Assembly (NCBI GenBank): GCA_964016885.1
Contig: OZ024745.1
Location: forward strand, 111,724,001 to 111,788,000
DNA length: 64,000 nt
DNA from: Eledone cirrhosa
Taxonomy: Eukaryota
Direction: 5' to 3'
Made by a program: the position numbers and the translations under genes
Shown: in pieces, positions 38,801 through 63,929 of the stretch
How positions within the stretch are numbered: the first letter of the stretch is position 1
How the letters are laid out: each line of letters opens with the position of its first letter
Notes under the pieces: model-generated
Told to the model about the DNA's origin: nothing
What the model saw: only the letters and a program-made list of their open reading frames with translations
The model's database searches: none

Positions 38801-41081
38801 GCCAGGGTATAAAAACTCCAGTTAATAAGTATGTTTTCAACCTAAACTCTGCTTACTGGAGTTAATTTCAGTATAAATATTAACATATGTCCTCGCTGTA
38901 AAAAAAATACTAATAATATTTCGTTTAGATTGATAAAAAATAGATTTGCAGGAGCTGGTGTAGAAATCTGCTAGCTTCAGCAGAAGGGAGGTAGATGTAA
39001 AAGCTGAACTCTCTGACTTCAGTTCGGTATTCGTGCCAACCCTTGAGTAATGACTGAAAGAATACAAGCGGCTGAAATAGGGTTCCTCCAAAGTGCATAG
39101 CTTGGAGATCAAAGAGTCACTCAAGATAGAACCACTACTTCTCCAAATTGAGAGATCACAGTTCCGATATTACAGACATGGGGTTAGTATGTGTCAGGAA
39201 AGAATCGCTGGACAGATTTTACAGACCCCAAACAAGATGGTTCGATAACACGAGTATGTTAGTACTGAGATTGAAGCAATTACTATGAAATTATAAAAGA
39301 TATCTAGCTTTGGGTTGGGACATTTTCTAGATGTCTCTTAACCCTTTAGCATTTAAACCGGCTGTTCATACCTATATTAAGGTATTGTTCTCAAAGTAAA
39401 TAACAACAAAATCTCAGATTCAAAATATTGTGAGATAAAGCCTTTACTGTGAAAACACAATAGTAAATATAGAATAATGTAAATGCTAAAGTGTTAAGCT
39501 ATTTATTGTTAGTACTAAGGCTACAGGTGAAGTTGACTTTGACAGATGTTTAAAGTCTAAAACTAGTCAGTTGATTTGAAAACCCATACCATAATTATTT
39601 TATACATGTAAATACACTGACATGGACAAATGGTCTAATGAAGCAGTTCTTTGGGTGTTTATTTAAGATATATAACTATATACTTCCAACAATGTTTATT
39701 CATGTGTGAAATAATATTCAACTGCTCTTTTGCTTGAATGTACATATCAGCAGCCTGAGATCCTCCTTCATAAACTTCCTCACCTATCCTGTGTCTCTAT
39801 CATTCATCAAGTGAAATATGCTTACCCCATTTCTTTACAACCTTTACCGTCAACATCCTTATCTTGCATACTCATATAATCTGGTTTTCTAACAGGTAAT
39901 AAGTTCCCTGAACGTGAATAATAGAGGAAAGCCATCCCCATGGTGGGATGTCTCTTTTTACACCACCCTAATGTAACGAGGTAGTAGTGGTAGAGTCATG
40001 ATAAAATGCTCCCAGTACACACAGTAAAGTGGGTGGTGTTAGGTAGGGCATCCAGTCAGAGCATAGTCTCCTGCCTGGTCCAGCTTCAGTGCATAACAAC
40101 CCATGCAAGCATGGAAACGAGATGTCAATGGTGATGATGATAACCATGTTAGGTCTGACTTCCAATTCAAATTTTGTTAGTGTCAAATCTTAACAGTAAT
40201 ATAATACAGTCAATCACCTAAAAGACAAATATTACATCAATGTTTTATTGTTGAAATATCTCCTTACAATGTTTACATAAAACATTAATGAAATATGTAT
40301 AATTGATATATAATGTGAATTTCATTTCACTAGAGGTATTCAATCTGTTGATGGTGGTGGTTTTGGAGTTGAACGACCTGCAAATCTTACAAAAGATGAT
40401 GATGAATACGAAGCCTTTAGAAAACGTATGATGCTTGCATACAAATTCCGACCAAATCCTTTGGTGAGCTGAACCTATTTGTGTCTTCTTATTGAAACTG
40501 TTACGTTTCAGTGTAAGATGAATCTTTGGAAATTATTATAACATCGAACAAAAAATGTGTATGGATTGCAAATCAAAGTTGAGTCACATGTTTCAGAAAC
40601 ATTACAGTAGAGAATTCTGGCCGGTTAAAGATTAAGAAAGAGAAATTTCATTTTGTAAATGACATGCAGTAATGTTATGTTTATGAAACATGTGGCTGGC
40701 TCAACTTTGATTTGATTTGCAATCCATACAACTGTTTCTTATATATATACTGGTAGAATTGCCCAGTTCAAGAGAATGCTATTGGATTTCTCTTTGAGAT
40801 AAGAAAATAATTTTTTCCAAACCATTTGATGTCTGCACTTTGCCAGAAATACACCCAATTCAGTGGTTGACATTAGGAAGGGCTAGATCTGTTAAATGTG
40901 CACCTTGGCCAAATAGGGCTCAAACCACATTTGTGTTGTCAGTATACTCTTAACTGGCCATTCATTGTTTTGACTTTTAAAATTTAGTAGATTGGGAAAG
41001 TATTTCATTATTGAATCTATAAACTAATCAAATATGTATATTTCTTTTTTTTAGAACAATCCACGCCGGCCATACTATTGA
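6234..41081 (+). CDS. SUGP1: SURP and G-patch domain-containing protein 1 (splicing factor 4), spliced gene, 14 coding exons, 2304 nt, ~767 aa
   Basis: Exons 6234-6502, 12756-12937, 15862-16377, 17536-17656, 19069-19169, 21137-21254, 22196-22320, 23957-24154, 27471-27559, 33392-33566, 35630-35727, 38674-38828, 40334-40463, 41055-41081 all have GT-AG ends and matching phases. Motifs recognised from human SUGP1: [63 protein letters not shown]-patch [42 protein letters not shown]. An in-frame TGA at 6228 supports the ATG; the acceptor at 6218 implies a further upstream 5' UTR exon. Confidence 0.95.
6860..7270 (-). mobile_element. RTE LINE family A, 5'-truncated 3' end with (ATG)n tail
   Basis: [12 protein letters not shown]...GRGRPRKTW; near-identical reverse complement of ~11440-11840. 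Confidence 0.9.
7280..9650 (-). mobile_element. RTE LINE family B, 5'-truncated, frameshifted reverse transcriptase
   Basis: [48 protein letters not shown]; frame breaks near 8020 and 8840. Confidence 0.95.
10190..10600 (-). mobile_element. Old RTE LINE fragment, continuing at ~11850-12680 and interrupted by the family A copy
   Basis: Degenerate similarity to RTE C-terminal coding region. Confidence 0.65.
10609..11840 (+). mobile_element. RTE LINE family A, 5'-truncated, with stops and frameshifts, (ATG)n tail
   Basis: [30 protein letters not shown], tail taaaatgatgatgatg. Confidence 0.93.
11850..12680 (-). mobile_element. Old RTE LINE fragments
   Basis: [25 protein letters not shown] remnant. 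Confidence 0.6.
12756..12937 (+). CDS. SUGP1: SUGP1 coding exon 2
   Basis: Polypyrimidine tract plus ttaag; [15 protein letters not shown]; gtaagt. Confidence 0.9.
13126..13230. repeat. Degenerate minisatellite, 3 x ~34 bp
   Basis: tcctmtaaccttgtaaaacaggg-tcaggaacca-like units. Confidence 0.6.
15400..15695 (+). mobile_element. Retroelement 3' end with internal duplication and (ATT)n tail
   Basis: tgatgagttgtagtgcacctgagcactgtacacaata occurs twice; another copy at ~28050-28236. Confidence 0.6.
15862..16377 (+). CDS. SUGP1: SUGP1 coding exon 3 (Ser/Pro-rich, 33-Ser tract)
   Basis: Phase 1-1 open exon, ends [12 protein letters not shown], donor gtaaga. Confidence 0.85.
16662..17120 (+). mobile_element. 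Non-autonomous DNA transposon fragment
   Basis: Reverse-complement match to 18262-18596; ends in gagtatatacagta, with a similar terminus at ~18820. Confidence 0.6.
17131..17346 (+). mobile_element. piggyBac-like MITE, family 1
   Basis: ttaactctttagcattta...taaatgctaaagggttaa. Confidence 0.85.
17536..17656 (+). CDS. SUGP1: SUGP1 coding exon 4
   Basis: ttttctag acceptor, open frame, ag|gtatgt donor; phase fits neighbours. Confidence 0.75.
17835..18262 (-). mobile_element. RTE LINE family A 3' end
   Basis: [17 protein letters not shown]...RGRPRKTW. Confidence 0.88.
18262..18821 (-). mobile_element. Non-autonomous DNA transposon, inverted copy of 16662-17120
   Basis: ctctatgaatccctatacaaagttct is the reverse complement of 16692-16717. 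Confidence 0.6.
19069..19169 (+). CDS. SUGP1: SUGP1 coding exon 5
   Basis: ccattag acceptor, open frame, ag|gtattc donor; restores phase 1. Confidence 0.75.
19704..20105. mobile_element. Family 1 MITE (19704-19902) abutting a family 2 MITE through a shared TTAA
   Basis: TIRs of both elements visible; the second has ~40-bp imperfect TIRs (cctgaaagcacccctagttct / agaactaggggaggtttcagg). Confidence 0.75.
20172..20458 (+). mobile_element. tRNA-derived SINE
   Basis: A box tggcttagtgg, B-box-like ggtttgattcc, central ccctgtgatagactggcgtcctgtccagggg, (AGACTTT)2 tail; similar heads at ~21285, ~24265, ~31040. Confidence 0.8.
21137..21254 (+). CDS. SUGP1: SUGP1 coding exon 6 (SURP N-half; exact acceptor ambiguous)
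   Basis: [40 protein letters not shown]; donor gtaagt. Confidence 0.85.
22196..22320 (+). CDS. SUGP1: SUGP1 coding exon 7 (SURP C-half)
   Basis: [21 protein letters not shown]; donor gtgagt. Confidence 0.85.
22383..23600 (-). mobile_element. Nested cluster: partial MITE, old RTE LINE, and a (CAT)n-tailed SINE/LINE tail at ~22823-22990
   Basis: [13 protein letters not shown] and [20 protein letters not shown] remnants. Confidence 0.7.
23957..24154 (+). CDS. SUGP1: SUGP1 coding exon 8 (ULM motif)
   Basis: [10 protein letters not shown]; ttttag acceptor, gtaaga donor. Confidence 0.9.
24752..25315 (+). mobile_element. RTE LINE family B 3' end with full 3' UTR and (ATG)n tail
   Basis: Reverse complement of 36327-36900. 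Confidence 0.88.
25464..25677. mobile_element. Fold-back MITE-like element
   Basis: ~47-bp imperfect TIRs plus an internal hairpin at 25518-25553. Confidence 0.65.
25703..26343 (-). mobile_element. Non-autonomous Helitron
   Basis: Minus strand starts TCTATATATATAAAG and ends acgc-agcaag-gcgt hairpin + gggtaatttggCTAG, inserted between A and T. Confidence 0.7.
27218..27386 (-). mobile_element. piggyBac-like MITE, family 1
   Basis: TTAA-CCCTTTAGCATT termini. Confidence 0.8.
27471..27559 (+). CDS. SUGP1: SUGP1 coding exon 9
   Basis: [20 protein letters not shown]; donor gtaggt, phase 0. Confidence 0.9.
28240..28430 (+). mobile_element. SINE with pol III-like head
   Basis: gagttcaaatccc B box and ttgcctttcatcct core; near-identical copy at 35085-35271. 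Confidence 0.8.
29134..29341 (+). mobile_element. piggyBac-like MITE, family 1
   Basis: Same internal sequence and TIR; further copies at ~35345-35528 and 39338-39497. Confidence 0.8.
30508..30671 (+). mobile_element. Short 5'-truncated RTE/BovB-like LINE end with C2H2 finger and 12-bp target-site duplication
   Basis: [21 protein letters not shown]; attctgtttagt at 30496-30507 and 30672-30683. Confidence 0.85.
33392..33566 (+). CDS. SUGP1: SUGP1 coding exon 10
   Basis: [23 protein letters not shown]. Confidence 0.95.
33645..34205 (+). mobile_element. Decayed mariner (Tc1/mariner) transposon
   Basis: HDNASSH at 34038 and [24 protein letters not shown], resembling the mariner HDNA and YSPDLAP motifs; boundaries approximate. 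Confidence 0.75.
35085..35271 (+). mobile_element. SINE, same family as 28240-28430
   Basis: Direct sequence match. Confidence 0.8.
35630..35727 (+). CDS. SUGP1: SUGP1 coding exon 11
   Basis: [33 protein letters not shown]. Confidence 0.95.
36055..36186. repeat. Near-perfect palindrome, 65-bp arms, 2-nt loop
   Basis: ...agctagatccgaactaag-ct-cttagttcggatctagct...; 7 mismatches across the arms. Confidence 0.95.
36327..38636 (-). mobile_element. RTE LINE family B, 5'-truncated, with 3' UTR and (ATG)n tail
   Basis: YKGKGD...[24 protein letters not shown], degraded YADD (YAHE). Confidence 0.95.
38674..38828 (+). CDS. SUGP1: SUGP1 coding exon 12 (G-patch)
   Basis: [46 protein letters not shown]. 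Confidence 0.95.
39338..39497 (+). mobile_element. piggyBac-like MITE, family 1 (internally deleted)
   Basis: TTAA and TIR at both ends. Confidence 0.8.
40334..40463 (+). CDS. SUGP1: SUGP1 coding exon 13
   Basis: [23 protein letters not shown]. Confidence 0.95.
40558..40730. mobile_element. MITE-like inverted repeat in the last SUGP1 intron
   Basis: tgtatggattgcaaatcaaagttgag ... ctcaactttgatttgatttgcaatccataca. Confidence 0.7.
41055..41081 (+). CDS. SUGP1: SUGP1 last coding exon
   Basis: NNPRRPYY then TGA. Confidence 0.95.
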   Translation, partial: NNPRRPYY

Positions 41082-41221
41082 GAGAATTGAAGTTTAAACA
41101 GAAGACCTCATCTAAAACAATTTTTATTCATCAGATATTATTTTCATGTCCATAATGTAACAACTTCTGAAAATACACAATATATCATCTGGTTTTTAAA
41201 GTCTTTCTGGCAGAAGTATTC

Positions 41222-41227
41222 AATAAA
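41222..41227 (+). promoter_or_regulatory. Candidate SUGP1 polyadenylation signal
   Basis: First AATAAA after the stop, ~140 nt downstream. Confidence 0.45.
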
Positions 41228-43228
41228 AAAAGTTATTTGGTTTAAAATTTAAAGGCTTCCCCTGTTATTGGTTGCTATCTGTGAAATAAGTGATTGACTA
41301 TATACTTGGTGTTTGAGACATTTCAGCTTGTCATAGTCAGCTTATTGAAAATTTCTCTCTTGGGTTGTGAAGTTCTGCTATTTTATAAATATATTTTATT
41401 TTGCGTCTCCAGAATGTCAAGTTGAAAGTACAAAAGCAACATGGTATGGTTGCTTGGTGTAGCTGCTATTAATTTAAATTAAACTGTGCATGTACTAACT
41501 TGAACTGTCACATTCCAGTGTTTCGCCCAGGGTTCTTTTTTCTTCAAATATTGACTATTTAACTCCTGCAAGCTCTTGTTGCAAAAATGGCATAAGTGAA
41601 AAAAAAAAAAAACACTAAATCCTGTTTACTGTGATCATTAAAGGATTGAAACTAATATTGGTCTTTCATAATTAAAGGCTTATTGAAGCAATATTGTTGG
41701 TTTTGTTTGATACTTTACATCTACTCAATGCAGCGTTTTGAATAGGAGGGAATCCTATCCCCATTAAGTTGTGGTTTCATTACATCTAACATTGATATAT
41801 AAGCATTCGATATTATAATGTATGTTTATAAAGTAATACAAACAATAGATTATATATAATCACATTTATTTTTCAAAATTTCTATGTAGAGTTAAGGTTA
41901 AACTCATTTCTTCTAGAATAGTATTTTAACAAAAACAGACTTGCATTGATTAAAAAGACTAATGGTGGGTTTGAACAATATGGGAGAAGGGACTGCCTTA
42001 AGTCGAACATCGGGATGAAAGGGAGGGAACTGTAAGAGATGCACGCTGCTACCATCTTTCTATCAATATTTGACTTACATCACTGATCCTTTTTCATTCA
42101 GGCAGTTTAACAACCTCAGATTATTTCATTTTTCTCTTCAGCTTTTATAGATCTACATTAGTTGGGCTTGTCTAACTTCAACTCCCTTGCTCTGAACTTT
42201 CACTAATAGAGACCTAACTGGAAGAGAAACACGTATATTGTGGACAATACTTTTTATTGCTGTGATGTCAACACCAAATTATATCCAGTGTCCCTTGTAT
42301 TTGCTGAAATGACATTCATTCAGAGTACTTACGCAAATGTTCTACACTCGACTTTATAAATTTGTATTATCAGATTTTTCTTGTACGCTTAAAGATGGTT
42401 CACAAGTCATTCAGAGAGGCATGGTCATCCATAATAAATATGCAAAGAATAGTTTGATTCTATTTGGGAAATGTCTCAAACTCAGCTTACTGTTGCAATT
42501 GACACATCTGTCCTAAGCGTAGCATCTCCATAATAAAATGAAGAATGTGACTAAAACCTACAAAAGTTAACATCTCAGCAATTTTGAGATAGTAATACTG
42601 CAACCCCATGGTCATCCATTAGTGTCATGTTGGTACCTTCATATTAACTCGTCTAATGCATCAGTAAATCTCTTAAGTTCCTCCTAGCTTGATACACCAT
42701 TTCTTGCTAAAGTGTCTAGCCAATTACTCTAAAAAAACTTTAAAATATGACCAGTTGTCTATAGTTCCTGAATTTATATTTGCTATAGAATGATAAAAAA
42801 AATATTTAGTTGTGGATAAGTTGCAATCATGATACTGAATTCTATTTTACTGCATTCTGCATGAGTGAAATCAGGGAGCCTTTGTGCAGTATGTATTTAA
42901 CTATATATAGACAAAGGAATAAACCCAAAAGAGCATTCTACATACTAAATATATACACACTGTAAGGTCCCAAATATAGTAAATTGATAAGGCGTCTTCC
43001 TAATTTTCTATTGAATTCTCAAAACTTTCATTTCATGACTTAAGTTGAGTTGTATCTTTTTTTTTTTTTTTTTAATCGCTAGAGTTCTAAAATGTAATAT
43101 ATTTGGAATCTGGTATAGACAATGTAGTTTAAAATGGATCTGATCTTAGACTTAACTGATGATAGTATGCTGCTGAAAGAACTATTACAACTAAATCAAA
43201 ATACTCCACAGCCAATGTGGTTCTCTTT

Positions 43229-43322
43229 TGGACAGTGCTTTCTCTGCAAGTTATAGAGCTATGTGTTAGGACAAGTGGACAGTGCTTTCTCTGCAAGTTA
43301 TAGAGCTATGTGTTAGGACAAG
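43229..43322. repeat. Perfect tandem duplication, 2 x 47 bp
   Basis: tggacagtgctttctctgcaagttatagagctatgtgttaggacaag twice. Confidence 0.95.
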
Positions 43323-46300
43323 AAACTGCATTCTTTGCTCAATAATTGGAGATCAAAGAATCAAGATACTTAAGCAAAAGGGCTCGAAACATTGTACAAT
43401 AACAAGCAACATTGTCAAAATAATATATTCCACAATAGACTTGGGTTGACCAACATCATGTCAGTCAACAAAATGTGGAGGGTAGTAATTCCAACCAAAT
43501 TTAAGACTTTGGTAACAATTAGTCATTGAAAACCTATAAACCATACACCATCCTTCACAAAATACTTGATGACAACTGGGATTTACAACTTAATTTTGAT
43601 TTTGCTAGCAGGCACTATTTTAATACAAACTTCAGAACATGAGAGTAACGACCACATACAGCTAGCAAGCAATTTTCCCATCAATAAGTAATATTTAAAT
43701 GAGGATACAACCATAAATCCGCCAGAACTAGAGTGTGATTTCACCAGATATTTGTACATTACCATTTTTATATGAAATTGTGTTCAACTTAATTTATTTT
43801 GGCTATATTTTTGTGACAGCAAAAAAAACCTACAGGATATTTTAATTGCCAATAGTTATAGCAACTCCAACAAAACCTAGAAAAGATTAATCCCTGAAAC
43901 AAGAGTGAAAATCCAAACTTCTATTCAGAAGTACTCAAAAACCAATCTATTTCCTTTTATTGAAACGTAGACAAATGCAGAACCAAACATGTAGAACAAA
44001 AGATGATCCCATACAGGTTTGGACGAAATTGAAGTTATTTTCCATGGTAAATAGATGTAAATCACTAGGAAGCTGAGCAAAATCAAGAACTACTGAACAC
44101 AAATCTTCAATGCGGTTGGTTTTCAATATCAGGACCATAAAGAACACGACCCCTCTCAACCTGGAAAAAGAATTGTCCATTGACAAAGATTGTACTGCTG
44201 GTTATGCCAACACATACTAAGACTAGAAATGAGATCACTTCCATATCAAAGAATTCACATAGCTTTTAACTGGTGTTTCAGTTGTGCCATTGTGGTGTGT
44301 ACCACAATTATTGCAAATAGAAAAGGGCTAATATTGGATATTTAAAAGGCAAAATTAAGGTGGTCTGATTCACTAATAGAAATGCAATTTGCTAGCAACT
44401 ACATACAAATGGGACCTGGACTTGTGGATGCAAATTGGCTTCAAATAATTCACAAAGGTAATAAGTGGAGGTATGTGGATTAGAACCAAAAGTGACTTGT
44501 TTGTAATTCCAAACATTGCAATTTAGAAAAAGGGCAGGACTCCTAGTGAATGGTAAATTGAAGCAACTTGCATGAAAATTCACGAACCTGTAAATTTTAA
44601 TTTTATTTGCATGTGAAGACTATTTTGTAGATTATGATGAATTCCAGTATTATGTGCTATTTTAGCCTATATTAATATGCACTCAAATTCAATTGATCTA
44701 ACGTGCTGAAATTTTCTATACAATTATTATAGATTTCAGCTTATTGTCTAGTAACTTATTTTATAGGGTGCTGTATTGAGAAAAATTCCAGATTTATGCA
44801 AATATCCTTTGTTAAGTTGTGTTCGAAGCTATATATATATATATATCAGTTTTAGTTTAATTGAAACAAACTAAGACATTCAAGAACTTAAGATTGGTTT
44901 CAATAATGGAAGGGTTAATTCCATCTAGATATCAATGAGGCAATGAAAGCCACTCAATATTTCAGTTACACATGGCCAGTACAAGACAATGAAAGAACTA
45001 ATGATTGATAAAAAGCAAGAATAAGGAGAAAAGTATTGGTGTGCATAATACTGTTTAGAACACAACCACAATGGAAAATGCCACTGACTCATTTTCAAAT
45101 CTGTGAATATTGTTTTTCTGTTATAACATCACCAAAATTGAAATGGCACTGATGTTGACAATTCCCTTACTGCCAATTAGATTAATTAACATGCTGAGAA
45201 AAGAAAAACTGAAATTAGTTTAAGATTTTATTTCAGAGATGAAATGACTAATGAGGAATCACAGATGGATTGTTTTATCACAGATTTCACTTGTAGAAAG
45301 ACTATGGTTTTGTAGTAATTTTGAGCACAAGGCATCAAAAATCGAGATCAAAGGGAAGAATCTCATTTTGAGAGCTATAAAAACTCATTTCAATGAACGT
45401 TTTTTTTATAAAAATGCATGTAAAATATAAATGATTTGTAGAAACTTTATAGTCATGAATATTGAAATGACAAATGTTTGAATAATGGCACGTAAAATAG
45501 ATGCTTTGTAAAAATTGAATGAGTCTGTATGGATATAAAATAAATTTGTACAAATTCAGAATAGTTCATATAAAATTCCATTTTTTCACACATGTAGTTC
45601 ATGTCCATGACCTGAAAAAAAAAAAAAGTAAAGTAATAAATAAAACTGAAATAAACAATTTTTGGTGCTAAACAACAGTAAAGATTAATTTAATTTTAAT
45701 ATGGCATAAAGTCTAAAATCCAACATTTTAGGAGAAATAAATAAACTTACCACATGCTTTTTAGAAAGTATAGACTCTGAATTTAATGATAATACACTGT
45801 AAATAAAGAAATTAAAATAAATTTATATAGAAGACAATTCTTATTACAATTTATTAATATCAACACAAAATTTAACATGTATGTTTACATATATGCATGG
45901 TTATGTAGAAGAAAAAAAAAAGGTACTTAATAGGAACACAGTTACCATGAAATCATCTCAATAAGTTCAATTTGAAGGTGTTTCTCATGTGAGAATAAGT
46001 ACAAAATTCAAGAGATAAAAGGTTCTGATTACAAGCTAGTGATTCACCAATTGCTTATTAAAAGTATTATATTCGTAAAAGCATTCAATATAGTCAAGGG
46101 CACCGACACTATAACTACTGGCAAGGTGCTTACTCAGCATACTGATCTTTATTTCAGTCCCCATAAAGTACTTTCAGCAGCTTCTTGACTGCTTAAAATG
46201 GACACTAAGGAGTGGCCTCTTCTCACAGAATAATGTACCCAATTCCAAGAGAAATTCAAGTCAAAAGGATGAAATGTTGACCATAGTGGGATTATTCTCA

Positions 46301-49300
46301 ATGATTTTTATCAAGTCAGAGGTTGCTTGATATGCTTGAAATAGGCAAATGTCTCAAATTACACTTCAATATTTAAGGAAAGACAGGCATACTGGACAAT
46401 GTAGTTTAAGAAATTATATAGAAACAGGATGATTATATATCAAATGCTCAACTACCATCATATGGAGCACATGAAATATTACTGTACTGGACAAAAATCA
46501 CAACATAAAAATCTATTACACAATATGACAAGGAAAAGAGATTACTTACCAATCTAAAAACGTACAAAAAATGCAACAGCTTGCAGTTGAGGAGTCATGA
46601 AAATATGTTGCTACGATGGAATGCCAGCATGAGGTAGGTCTTTATAGAGAAAACACTACAGAAAAAAAAAAGATATCAATTATACATCACAGTTAAAAAG
46701 ATTAATAAACAAGATATACTATGAAAACCAGACGAAAAGTATATATATACATATACATATATATATATATAATACATATACATATATATATATATATATG
46801 ATACATATACAACAAATGAATTCATACAAACTTGCTCCTTAAATGTGCAGGTAATTTACAACTGGCACACTCCATGAAGAGGGACTGAGTACATTTTGGT
46901 CTCATTTTTCATTAAAAGATTGCTCTTCATTTGATTTTTTTTTGTCAAAGTGGTGAGTGTTTAATAATTTACATTATCCTCTCAGAGAGAGATTAAAAGG
47001 ACCATTTGATAAATTAAAAAAAAATAATGTTCTTCCCTATTTGAAAATAGAATGATGCTATATATATATAAATATATATATTAGAATTTTACAAAGCATC
47101 AAGGGAGAAACATGAAAAACTTACAGAACATCAGCAAGCCGAGATTGATTTCACAATGCTTGATAAAAAATAAATGCAACAAATTGAGAGTAAACAAAAA
47201 CCAATATTTCTTTGTTCGGAGAAGTGCAGTGATATTGGAAGATGTGGGCCTTACAATTAAGGCGAGCCAGCAAAATTTTTTGTAGCAAAGCACGATGAAA
47301 GAATACAAAACACTTGTCTAATTATTATAATGAAATCATAGTAATTGTTGTAAATAGTGATAAGCATAAAAAGGTCAAAGTGAAGAAGCCTCTTTCTGGC
47401 AGCACTTCTAATTGAAGGCATAGCACACAGACTGACAATATCCACAAAGAAAACAACTACAGCATCACGTCTAATAGCAGTAAGCTAAGTTAATTACAAT
47501 TAAATACAAAACTAGAAATACAGAAAAACAATTAGAAAATTTTGTATTTGGTTAAAAAATTAAGAATGGTGGGGAAAGTTCATATTCAAGCTGATAAAAA
47601 GTGGCTGAACCAGAAGAAGAGAATTTGCCCATATAGAATAGTGGAAACAAAGGACAAATTCAGCAGTGGATAATTCATACATATATATAGTTTAAACAAA
47701 CAGGACTCCTTAACGGAATACTTAGCAGGCCAGCAAGTCTACAGAAAAAGTGCTAATCTCTAGGGAACTAACGAAAATATTTCACAACAAAGATGAGCTA
47801 GAAAAACAAAAATGTTTACTGTCACTAAAGTTATTGCAGAATAAATAAAAAGCCACCAATCCCAATTGTAAGTATTACTATATATAAAAAAACAAAGAAA
47901 AGAGACAAAAGATATTTCCTACTTACCATCATTTTATTGACTGAAGAAAATACAATGGTCTTGAAAGACGTCAGAGCCTCAACAACCCCTCAGCAAGCTC
48001 GCACTGTGAAGTCTTTACAACAAACATTAGGAGTTAACTAACACCTAGATATGAGGTAGATAAATAATAAATCTTCAACTTGGATTTTCCCAAGTCAAGA
48101 GTTATTCTCTCTGGACAACAGATAAAAAAAGGAGTTCAGTGAGACCATCCTCCCAGAGAGTCAAGAGATGAAGAAAAAAGATTTGGAGCATACACATTTC
48201 TGTGCAAATGATGCAGACAGACGAAGCTGTTGATAAAAATCCTTGGGAAATATTCTGCTAGATACCACCACGGTCAAATAAGCAGTACTAACTACCGGAG
48301 CAAGTAAAAAATAATATAATAAATACAATAGGATATACATATATAAGATTAAAAAAAAAGAAAAAAGATTTTTTTCTCTTTTTTTTTATGAAGAAAATTT
48401 TGTAAGCTTTCCCATATTACAAAAAACATGCAAATTCAGTATTGGCAATCAAACAGCTCCATCTCCAGAAAGAAATGTGTATAGCAAACAAAAACGATCA
48501 GGAACCACTGAGGTACACAAATTTCCAGGTAAACTTAACTAATTCCCTTATCCCAGAATTTTCCAATGATTGTTATATAGTTAGGAAGATATACAATTAG
48601 CAAATGGATAATTAAATGGGCTACTAACGAAAATGGATAAGACTAATTGAAGGGAAAATAATTTCAAGTCATATGAAGAATATTTAGGAGTACAAGGAAC
48701 TATGTAGCAAAGAGGAAGTTTAAATATATTTAGGGAAATAAAGCACAAAAAAAAAAATAAAAAAAGAGGGAGAGGAAAAATATGAAGTATATCATTCCAT
48801 TTATTTTAAACTGTCGTGGAGGTCTGCAGTGCAAAGAGCCAATTGCTGACAAAATTCACCATAGTAACTGGCCAGCAGTTGTTATCTTTTGACTGGAGAG
48901 CCTGGAAATTTTCGGCATTCAGTCGTTCAGCATGATCAAATTGTATTGCTCGAGTAAGCTGCCAACAGCCCTGTTCTTCGACAAAAAGGTAAAAAGTAAA
49001 AAGTCTGAATGAATATCTCAACATTAAATCCACTTGCTCAGTCAAAAGTAACTGGTTTGGTTGGTTTCCTAAATCTTTTTCACTTCAAACTTACAGCTAG
49101 TATCAAGAGATGAAACAAGCATTGCTGAATTGTAAAATTCTCTAAACTTGAATTCTAGTACAGGTCAAGCCATCTTTACTAATATTAGCAGAGATTGCCT
49201 GAAATTATATATCTAAGAGAGAGATATAAAGAAAAAAACCCAGATTTTATGGAATTCAACTTTAGATTTGTAATTAAGGAAAGAATTGTGAGCTGACCAA

Positions 49301-50272
49301 AAGCAGATTTCAGTTTTAAATTACACTTGAGCAAATGAAACTAAATTTAAAAAAAAAAAAAAAAAAGAATTAAAGCAATTTGTCAAATACCAATCAATAT
49401 TCCATTGAATCTTTTCAAACAAATGGGAAGAAAAAAATGCTTCATTAAATAAAACCGAAAATATTCCCAAATCTATTATTTTCCAAGTTTTTAAAAGCAA
49501 AGCACAAGAATTTTTCTTATTGGTTGTTTTTCAATGTATTCTAGTTTAAAATTAAACTAAGTACAAAAACCATGTGCTCAGGTAATGAAACAACCTAGTC
49601 CAAATAAAAAAAAAATATAAAAAAACGCACATGGCTTACATTGATAACTTACTGAACGATGACCAATAATAAAAAAAGCTAATTTGTAAACAGAATGGAT
49701 ACTGATCGTTGATCCAAGTTGAAATATTCAGACACATTTTGATTAAAAAAAATTGCAAAAGTTTGTGTGCACACGATTTTATTAAAAAAAAAAGAACTAG
49801 GTTTTCATTCAATTAAATTTGGACAAGAATAACTGAAAAGCTGCATACCAGTGAAACGACAAGCTTTCTCCAAAAGGGGGTTAAAATAAAAAAAATTTAA
49901 ATGAAAAAAAAGACAAAAAAAAAACAGAAAACAGCTTTCAGCAGGCCATAACTGTGAAGACGAGGACAAAGAGCCTTGAATCAATGTTGGTTTATTACAA
50001 ATGATGGTACATGTAAGTAAGTATTGTATTTTAGAGGATCAGACAAGAGAAATCCCCAACTGGCAAGGAATAGTGATCAAAATCTGTATCAGATCCAACA
50101 TCAAAAGGAGCAAGAGGAGGACGACGACGTGATTGACACACCAACCATGATCCATACATAAAAGCTAATAAAAGGCTAGAAGACAAGTGAACAAAAAGTG
50201 GTCCATGTATCAATTAAAATGTTTGCTTCTGATGTGTAGACATGATGATTGAAGATGTGAAATGTCTCCAGT

Positions 50273-63929
<13,657 letters not shown>

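What the first reader, a model, noticed from the sequence alone, without database searches (positions are those of the whole stretch)
45205..49700. Chain of non-coding exons downstream of the MYEF2 stop codon
Seen on the minus strand: six perfect GTAAGT donors in ~4 kb (after 49653, 49095, 47927, 47125, 46550, 45751), most paired with pyrimidine-rich acceptors. Candidate exons: 49198-49095, 47940-47927 (14 nt, itself containing AATAAA), 47511-47125 (least certain), 46655-46550, 45796-45751, and a terminal exon starting at 45611 (T-run + cag) with AATAAA at ~45227. A proximal AATAAA lies at 49991-49996. Known: introns more than ~50 nt past a stop trigger NMD, and several hnRNP-type genes autoregulate through 3' UTR splicing. 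Inference: a poly(A)-choice versus 3' UTR-splicing switch, or a separate spliced lncRNA or small-RNA host.
Basis: partly seen in the sequence, partly recalled or inferred. Interest (0 to 1): 0.7.

Follow-up and report, generated by a model that had tools for sequence, protein, structure and literature searches.

The report
MYEF2 spliced tail, likely decay switch
The single MYEF2/hnRNP M gene of this mollusc can splice out of its last coding exon, before the stop codon, into short downstream exons, giving an RNA that is predicted to be destroyed and that likely lets the cell cap the level of this splicing protein, as human TDP-43 does.

Summary
All coordinates are right and six GTAAGT donors exceed chance. 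The chain belongs to the MYEF2/hnRNP M transcript. This spliced tail appears in 3 of 4 runs laid, from three coded organisms. A genomic insertion elsewhere preserves the spliced junction 47927 to 46655, so the 14-nt microexon donor is used too. Donors after 49653, 49095 and 47125 have no splicing evidence and pair weakly with U1. The spliced form replaces the last strand of RRM3 and stops 61 and 107 nt before two junctions, which fits nonsense-mediated decay (NMD). A 1.2-kb non-coding block around the microexon is about 98% identical in relatives, more than the coding Gly/Met exon. Best reading: a TARDBP-like switch between proximal polyadenylation and unproductive splicing. NMD and self-regulation are inferred, not shown. 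Separate lncRNA or snoRNA host: not supported. New member of a known kind; interest 0.42.

The parts
50335..51385 (-). U12-type (minor) intron before the last coding exon
   Evidence: GTATCCTT donor at 51385 and TCCTTAAC branch motif at 50352 (consensus recalled); joint 50334/51386 in 3 of 4 runs
50273..50334 (-). Coding part of the last exon: end of RRM3, stop TGA at 50275-50273
   Evidence: tblastn with P0012; translation
50288..50296 (-). Internal 5' splice site GAG|GTGAGA (exon ends at 50294), 18 nt before the stop and inside the last beta-strand of RRM3
   Evidence: Joint 46655/50294 in X22 and 45772/50294 in X13; U1 duplex -9.7 kcal/mol; strand E580-583 in the model
49991..49996 (-). Proximal AATAAA (a second at 49783-49778); lies inside the alternative intron; use inferred
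   Evidence: Sequence; cleavage site not mapped
46812..50272 (-). Long unspliced 3' region, either a long 3' UTR or a retained alternative intron
   Evidence: One unbroken 3554-nt contig over 46812-50323 in X22; matching contigs in X1, X5, X13
47093..48320 (-). Highly conserved single-copy non-coding core around the microexon, ending 31 nt past the GTAAGT at 47124
   Evidence: 1.3 (X1) and 1.5 (X13) substitutions per 100 nt versus 4.8 and 5.1 in the coding Gly/Met exon, Fisher p about 9e-5 each; single copy
47927..47940 (-). 14-nt microexon: donor use recorded in a genomic copy, acceptor inferred; in-frame TGA at 47931-47929 if joined from 50294
   Evidence: 13 of its 14 nt directly joined to exon 46655 in L005; U1 duplex -10.7; frame
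46550..46655 (-). Spliced exon, 106 nt; 14 codons then TAG at 46613-46611 when joined from 50294
   Evidence: Joints at both ends in X22; translation
45751..45796 (-). Spliced non-coding exon, 46 nt
   Evidence: Joint 45796/46550 in X22; joint 45590/45749 in X5 and X13; contig length arithmetic 2501
43293..45611 (-). Terminal exon from 45611; covered without a break to at least 43293; true end not mapped
   Evidence: X22 record 16; X5 and X13 contigs run 866-931 nt beyond 45237; contigs are unstranded
49095..49198 (-). Candidate exon, unconfirmed
   Evidence: Donor U1 duplex -5.4; no joint in 4 of 4 runs
47125..47511 (-). Candidate exon, unconfirmed; lies inside the conserved core
   Evidence: Donor U1 duplex -5.4; no joint listed in 4 of 4 runs, of which X1 does not cover the donor

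Best explanation
The MYEF2/hnRNP M pre-mRNA has an alternative 3' end: a donor inside the last coding exon is spliced to exons 46655-46550, 45796-45751 and 45611 onward, giving an RNA that is likely unproductive, predicted to be removed by nonsense-mediated decay, and likely used as feedback on the protein's own level. Shown: the junctions, their link to the coding exon, loss of the last RRM3 strand residues, a stop 61 and 107 nt before two junctions, a variant with the microexon donor, a long unspliced form, and strong conservation around the microexon. Inferred: the productive mRNA is cut near the AATAAA at 49996 or 49783; when that is delayed, the transcript extends and the 50294 donor is used, removing both the normal stop and the proximal signals. 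Inferred by analogy only: MYEF2/hnRNP M itself binds the conserved core and drives this switch.
For:: joints 46655/50294 and 45796/46550 with GT-AG ends in X22; 45772/50294 in X13; 45590/45749 in X5 and X13. X22 record 16 is 2501 nt = 2319+46+106+30 exactly, which fixes the third junction; the stop lies 61 and 107 nt upstream of junctions, or 108 and 154 nt with the microexon; residues 580-583 form the last RRM3 strand and the donor cuts after residue 580. L005 holds a 98-nt perfect copy of exon 46656-46559 preceded by 13 microexon bases, inside a LINE whose 11 of 11 other copies examined lack the insert; at most 2-4 of the 13 bases can come from the LINE; it is the best match in 128 kb, and 0 of 87,987 control 13-mers match a strong donor; conservation of the core. 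Analogy: TARDBP uses donors in its last exon, competing poly(A) sites and NMD (PMC4937342, sections 14 and 17); a Drosophila hnRNP M self-regulation paper was seen as a reference title only.
Against: No NMD-inhibition or binding data. The 50-55 nt rule is established in chordates and only assumed for a snail in the passages read (PMC12277549). The spliced contigs are not rare: depth 29 versus 278 (X22), 79 versus 616 (X13), 68 versus 2835 (X5), though contig depth is a poor measure. X1 shows no spliced tail. The core is only mildly richer in UUGU/UGUU (20 and 15 per kb) than other regions (4-13 and 5-16 per kb), so no clear hnRNP M site was found. The poly(A) site was not mapped. The microexon is not seen in any RNA contig, and the DNA copy cannot show its acceptor.
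Confidence: 0.6

Rival explanations
1. The spliced form is a stable, productive isoform with a changed RRM3 end and a different 3' UTR.
For: Contig depth 2-13% of the coding contig in 3 runs. The replacement residues keep an alternating hydrophobic pattern and might still form a strand (inference). Junction-dependent NMD is not shown in molluscs; it is junction-independent in Drosophila (recalled).
Against: The microexon variant would give a different 3-residue tail. A terminal exon of 2.3 kb or more would also favour decay by the long-UTR route (recalled).
Confidence: 0.14
2. The RNA is unproductive, but control comes from another factor or from nuclear retention of the long unspliced form, not from MYEF2 itself through NMD.
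For: An abundant unspliced contig over 46812-50323; the long TARDBP form is mainly nuclear (PMC4937342 section 14); the 41-nt exon follows a U12-type intron, so minor-spliceosome activity could set the choice (inference).
Against: No direct evidence; self-regulation is common among RNA-binding proteins (PMC6547761 abstract).
Confidence: 0.16
3. The splicing is incidental read-through, and the conserved core is a DNA element (enhancer) or a localisation/stability element of a long 3' UTR.
For: The core is more conserved than the spliced exons; three of six donors lack splicing evidence; no RNA fold signal (z from -1.4 to 1.25).
Against: The same tail junctions occur in three coded organisms although the exon sequences diverged; the core surrounds a donor whose use is recorded in DNA.
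Confidence: 0.07
4. A separate spliced lncRNA or a small-RNA host gene lies downstream of MYEF2.
For: Short, poorly conserved exons with GC-richer intronic islands; loose H/ACA-like box spacing at 48962-48809 and 48158-48002.
Against: The exons are joined to the coding exon in 2 of 4 runs. Rfam: 0 matches at gathering score in the window; 13 weak matches, all below threshold and mostly TA repeats. The candidates fold no better than shuffles, z -0.35 and -1.40.
Confidence: 0.03

Closest known systems
TARDBP (TDP-43) last-exon autoregulation and sTDP43 isoforms (PMC4937342: abstract, sections 14 and 17; PMC11244999: passages)
   Same: RRM protein gene; donor inside the last coding exon before the stop; further introns downstream; proximal poly(A) signal inside the alternative intron; new stop more than 55 nt before the last junction; a long unspliced form also exists.
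   Different: Different gene family. Here the donor cuts the last strand of a folded RRM, the exon follows a U12-type intron, and a 14-nt microexon in a 1.2-kb conserved core is optional. Feedback and NMD are demonstrated for TARDBP, not here.
SFPQ switch to distal 3' exons targeted by NMD (PMC6547761: passages)
   Same: Proximal productive end versus a group of distal exons with a stop upstream of a junction.
   Different: SFPQ skips its terminal exon from the previous donor; here the donor lies within the terminal exon.
Ultraconserved poison exons of SR and hnRNP genes (PMC4379411: passages)
   Same: Non-coding sequence more conserved than coding sequence around a stop-bearing alternative exon in a splicing-factor gene.
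   Different: [quoted passage not shown]
hnRNP M self-regulation: Drosophila HRP59 (reference title only) and a low-confidence human HNRNPM essential exon (PMC6547761: passage)
   Same: Same protein family controlling, or proposed to control, its own mRNA.
   Different: Those events are internal exon skipping (human: passage read; fly: recalled), not a switch at the 3' end.

Membership tests
MYEF2/hnRNP M family | Three RRMs with a Gly/Met-rich linker; best named hits are MYEF2 or hnRNP M | tested here: met
   single copy in the genome
TARDBP-type AS-NMD feedback | Donor inside the last coding exon spliced to downstream exons | tested here: met
   Joints at 50294 in 2 of 4 runs; tail junctions in 3 of 4
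TARDBP-type AS-NMD feedback | Stop more than 50-55 nt upstream of the last junction | tested here: met
   61 and 107 nt; 108 and 154 nt with the microexon. An untested form skipping 46655-46550 would give only 10 nt.
TARDBP-type AS-NMD feedback | Proximal poly(A) site inside the alternative intron, in use | tested here: inconclusive
   AATAAA at 49996 and 49783; contigs cannot show RNA ends
TARDBP-type AS-NMD feedback | Isoform accumulates when NMD is blocked | not testable with these tools
   Needs UPF1/SMG1 perturbation
TARDBP-type AS-NMD feedback | The protein binds its own RNA and shifts the choice | not testable with these tools
   Motif counts were not telling
Conserved poison-exon element | Non-coding conservation above coding level around a stop-bearing exon | tested here: met
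   1.3-1.5 versus 4.8-5.1 substitutions per 100 nt against the Gly/Met exon; the RRM3 exon itself is at 1.0 in X5
snoRNA or miRNA host gene | Intronic small RNA with a family match or a significant fold | tested here: not met
   guide-target pairing to rRNA not tested
Independent lncRNA | Transcript not joined to the coding gene | tested here: not met
   Joined to the coding exon in X13 and X22

The most novel reading that the evidence does not exclude
This lineage's hnRNP M independently evolved a TDP-43-like self-limiting circuit in which a 41-nt exon sits between a minor-spliceosome acceptor and a major-spliceosome donor, so that minor-intron splicing, poly(A) choice and a 14-nt stop-bearing microexon in a 1.2-kb near-invariant block jointly set the level of the protein; RNAs that escape decay would give an RRM3-altered dominant variant.
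Probability: 0.15. Interest if true: 0.7.

Novelty: new member of a known kind. Interest (0 to 1): 0.42.

Why it matters
Unproductive splicing of splicing-factor genes is well described in vertebrates, flies, worms and plants. My searches found no paper on it for this gene in cephalopods (0 papers; none among the 13 and 12 listed). The locus gives an endogenous, conserved, RT-PCR-testable substrate for an open point: whether junction-dependent NMD and splicing-factor feedback operate in molluscs. It would also be a case of convergence on the TARDBP design in another RRM family. A retro-copied fragment recording a rare microexon junction shows that the genome itself can confirm isoforms that assemblies drop.

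Tried and rejected
Rfam: nothing at gathering score in 64 kb; 13 sub-threshold matches. Own H/ACA and C/D scan and sliding fold z-scores: loose candidates only, strongest signals at or beside TA repeats; 8 windows folded, none below z -1.4. The 92-codon frame 48806-49084 has only a sub-threshold Pfam match (E 0.034): rejected as coding. No listed run is on record as RNA; the four laid runs behave as RNA because they skip coding introns and leave 50384-50774 uncovered. Only 4 of 24 listed runs were laid, once, at 90% likeness, so minor junctions at 49653, 49198/49095 and 47511/47125 remain open. No genomic DNA of relatives was obtained, so splice-site conservation rests on RNA contigs, with 109 difference rows not shown. 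Long-range pairing: only a 14-nt complement 47100-47087/45513-45500 at E 0.59, not counted. Searches for further retro-copies gave self matches or repeats. X13's contig has 147 letters between 45772 and 50294, versus 130 (skip) or 144 (microexon included) in this genome: undecidable. My first isoform translation was out of frame and was redone. The bacterial promoter scan does not apply. Earlier scan findings: none. The HRP59 paper is not held. No supplements were read; those of PMC6547761 may hold further HNRNPM events.

Full report
Setting. The minus strand carries a three-RRM gene whose RRM2 exon matches named MYEF2 and hnRNP M proteins (80-86% to named mollusc and annelid proteins, about 71% to vertebrate hnRNP M) and one unnamed protein, P0012, at 98%. 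It is single copy in a 3.0-Gb genome. tblastn with P0012 places the last coding exon at 50334, behind an intron with U12-type signals (consensus recalled); the stop is TGA at 50275-50273. A convergent plus-strand gene with a G-patch domain (the name SUGP1 is recalled) has its last exon at about 41056.

The observation. All six donors, the acceptors and the three AATAAA are at the stated places. Six GTAAGT in 4.5 kb were reached by 1, 0 and 1 of 500 shuffles at Markov orders 1-3. The donors are not equal. U1 pairing is -10.7, -10.7 and -9.1 kcal/mol for those at 47926, 46549 and 45750, but -5.6, -5.4 and -5.4 for 49652, 49094 and 47124, the same as a GTAAGT inside the U12 intron (-5.4) and weaker than the coding donors that read GTAAGT (-7.0 to -12.3).

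RNA evidence. Of 24 runs listed, four were laid: X22 is from the organism whose other runs hold 97-99% of the words, and X1, X5, X13 are from three other coded organisms. None is on record as RNA, but all four skip at least one coding intron and none covers 50384-50774. X22 shows GT-AG joints 50294 to 46655 and 46550 to 45796. Its record 16 is 2501 nt, exactly 2319+46+106+30, which fixes the junction 45751 to 45611 that the tool skipped at a T-run. X13 joins 50294 to 45772 through diverged sequence, and X5 and X13 both show the last junction. X1 shows no spliced tail. So the tail is part of the MYEF2 transcript and occurs in 3 of 4 runs. The same runs hold long unspliced contigs (46812-50323 in one piece in X22) with no joint at 49653, 49198, 49095, 47511 or 47125; contigs drop rare forms, so these sites are unconfirmed, not excluded. 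Cover continues past the AATAAA at 45232 to 43293 and, in further unstranded contigs, to the neighbouring gene's 3' region, so the end is unmapped.

A DNA record of the microexon. A search of the own genome with 45240-46700 found a 98-nt perfect copy of 46656-46559 on another contig (L005). It is directly preceded by 13 of the 14 bases of microexon 47940-47927, with no intron. The flanks are a non-LTR retrotransposon (RVT_1 and endonuclease domains), many copies of which join the two flanks directly; 11 of 11 copies examined lack the insert, and only 2-4 of the 13 bases can be LINE-derived. The microexon donor is the best match in both strands of the window, and 0 of 87,987 control 13-mers match a strong donor. 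The junction string occurs once in the genome. This fits an RNA-templated patch at a DNA break (PMC5110952, passages). It shows that 47927 is spliced to 46655; it does not show the acceptor. A 14-nt exon would not break the long contigs, whereas an abundant long exon ending at 47927 would, which favours the microexon reading (inference).

Consequence. In a model of P0012 the last RRM3 strand is residues 580-583; the donor cuts after residue 580. Joined to 46655, the frame runs 14 codons to a TAG 61 and 107 nt before the two remaining junctions; through the microexon it stops after three codons, 108 and 154 nt before them. Both meet the 50-55 nt rule, which is established in chordates and only assumed for a snail in the passages read (PMC12277549). 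The splice removes the normal stop and both proximal AATAAA.

Conservation. From the table, 48320-47093 has 1.3 (X1) and 1.5 (X13) substitutions per 100 nt, against 4.8 and 5.1 in the coding Gly/Met exon (Fisher p about 9e-5 each) and 6.2 in the parts of the terminal exon that align; the 106-nt exon does not align at 90% in X5 or X13. The proximal UTR is also about 99% in X13. The core is single copy, has no Rfam match and no fold signal. It contains the microexon and ends 31 nt past the weak donor at 47124, which keeps that candidate alive. U/G-rich words are only mildly enriched.

Mechanism. The arrangement matches TARDBP point by point: donors in the last exon, a proximal poly(A) site in the alternative intron, extra downstream introns, NMD, and a long nuclear form (PMC4937342, abstract and sections 14, 17; PMC11244999, passages). 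I therefore favour a switch between proximal polyadenylation (productive) and distal splicing (unproductive), with feedback by the protein itself (0.6 overall; architecture about 0.9, decay about 0.7). Against it: no perturbation data, fairly high contig depth of the spliced form, and absence in X1. Rivals: another regulator or nuclear retention (0.16), a stable alternative isoform (0.14), incidental splicing with an unrelated conserved element (0.07), a separate lncRNA or small-RNA host (0.03).

Novelty. The mechanism class is known (PMC6547761, PMC4379411, passages). For hnRNP M, self-regulation is reported in the fly (title only) and suggested for a human internal exon. Searches for this gene or mechanism in cephalopods gave 0 papers or none relevant among those listed; the library lacks most subscription papers. 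Verdict: a new member of a known kind, real and testable; interest 0.42.

Noticed in passing
window 54876-53898 and 51385-50335 (-): Two U12-type introns at equivalent positions in RRM2 and RRM3 (GTATCCTT donors, TCCTTAAC branch motifs); the second is confirmed by RNA joints.
   Followed up: partly
window 51170-51303 and 54465-54666: Inverted copies of a high-copy short repeat (2350 first-look candidates; best arm 27 nt at 96%) sit in the two U12-type introns. They could pair and favour RNA editing or back-splicing of the exons between them (speculation).
   Followed up: partly
window 54350-54214 (-): 137-nt copy (97%) of coding exon sequence 55340-55204 inside the first U12-type intron; no sign of use was sought.
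   Followed up: no
L004:1501-1777: 95% identical unspliced copy of window 46385-46664 on another contig; a second, older dispersed fragment of the same exon.
   Followed up: partly
window 41054-43293: Contigs of the convergent G-patch gene (to 41847) and of the region toward MYEF2 (from 41849) abut in X22, so the two 3' ends may overlap; strand unknown. Minus-strand GTAAGT at 42332 and 42078 show no joint.
   Followed up: no
window 47100-47087 and 45513-45500: 14-nt perfect complement between the end of the conserved core and a conserved part of the terminal exon; E 0.59, may be chance.
   Followed up: no
window 50077-50323: The proximal 3' UTR just behind the internal donor is about 99% identical in X13, a second candidate regulatory site.
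   Followed up: no
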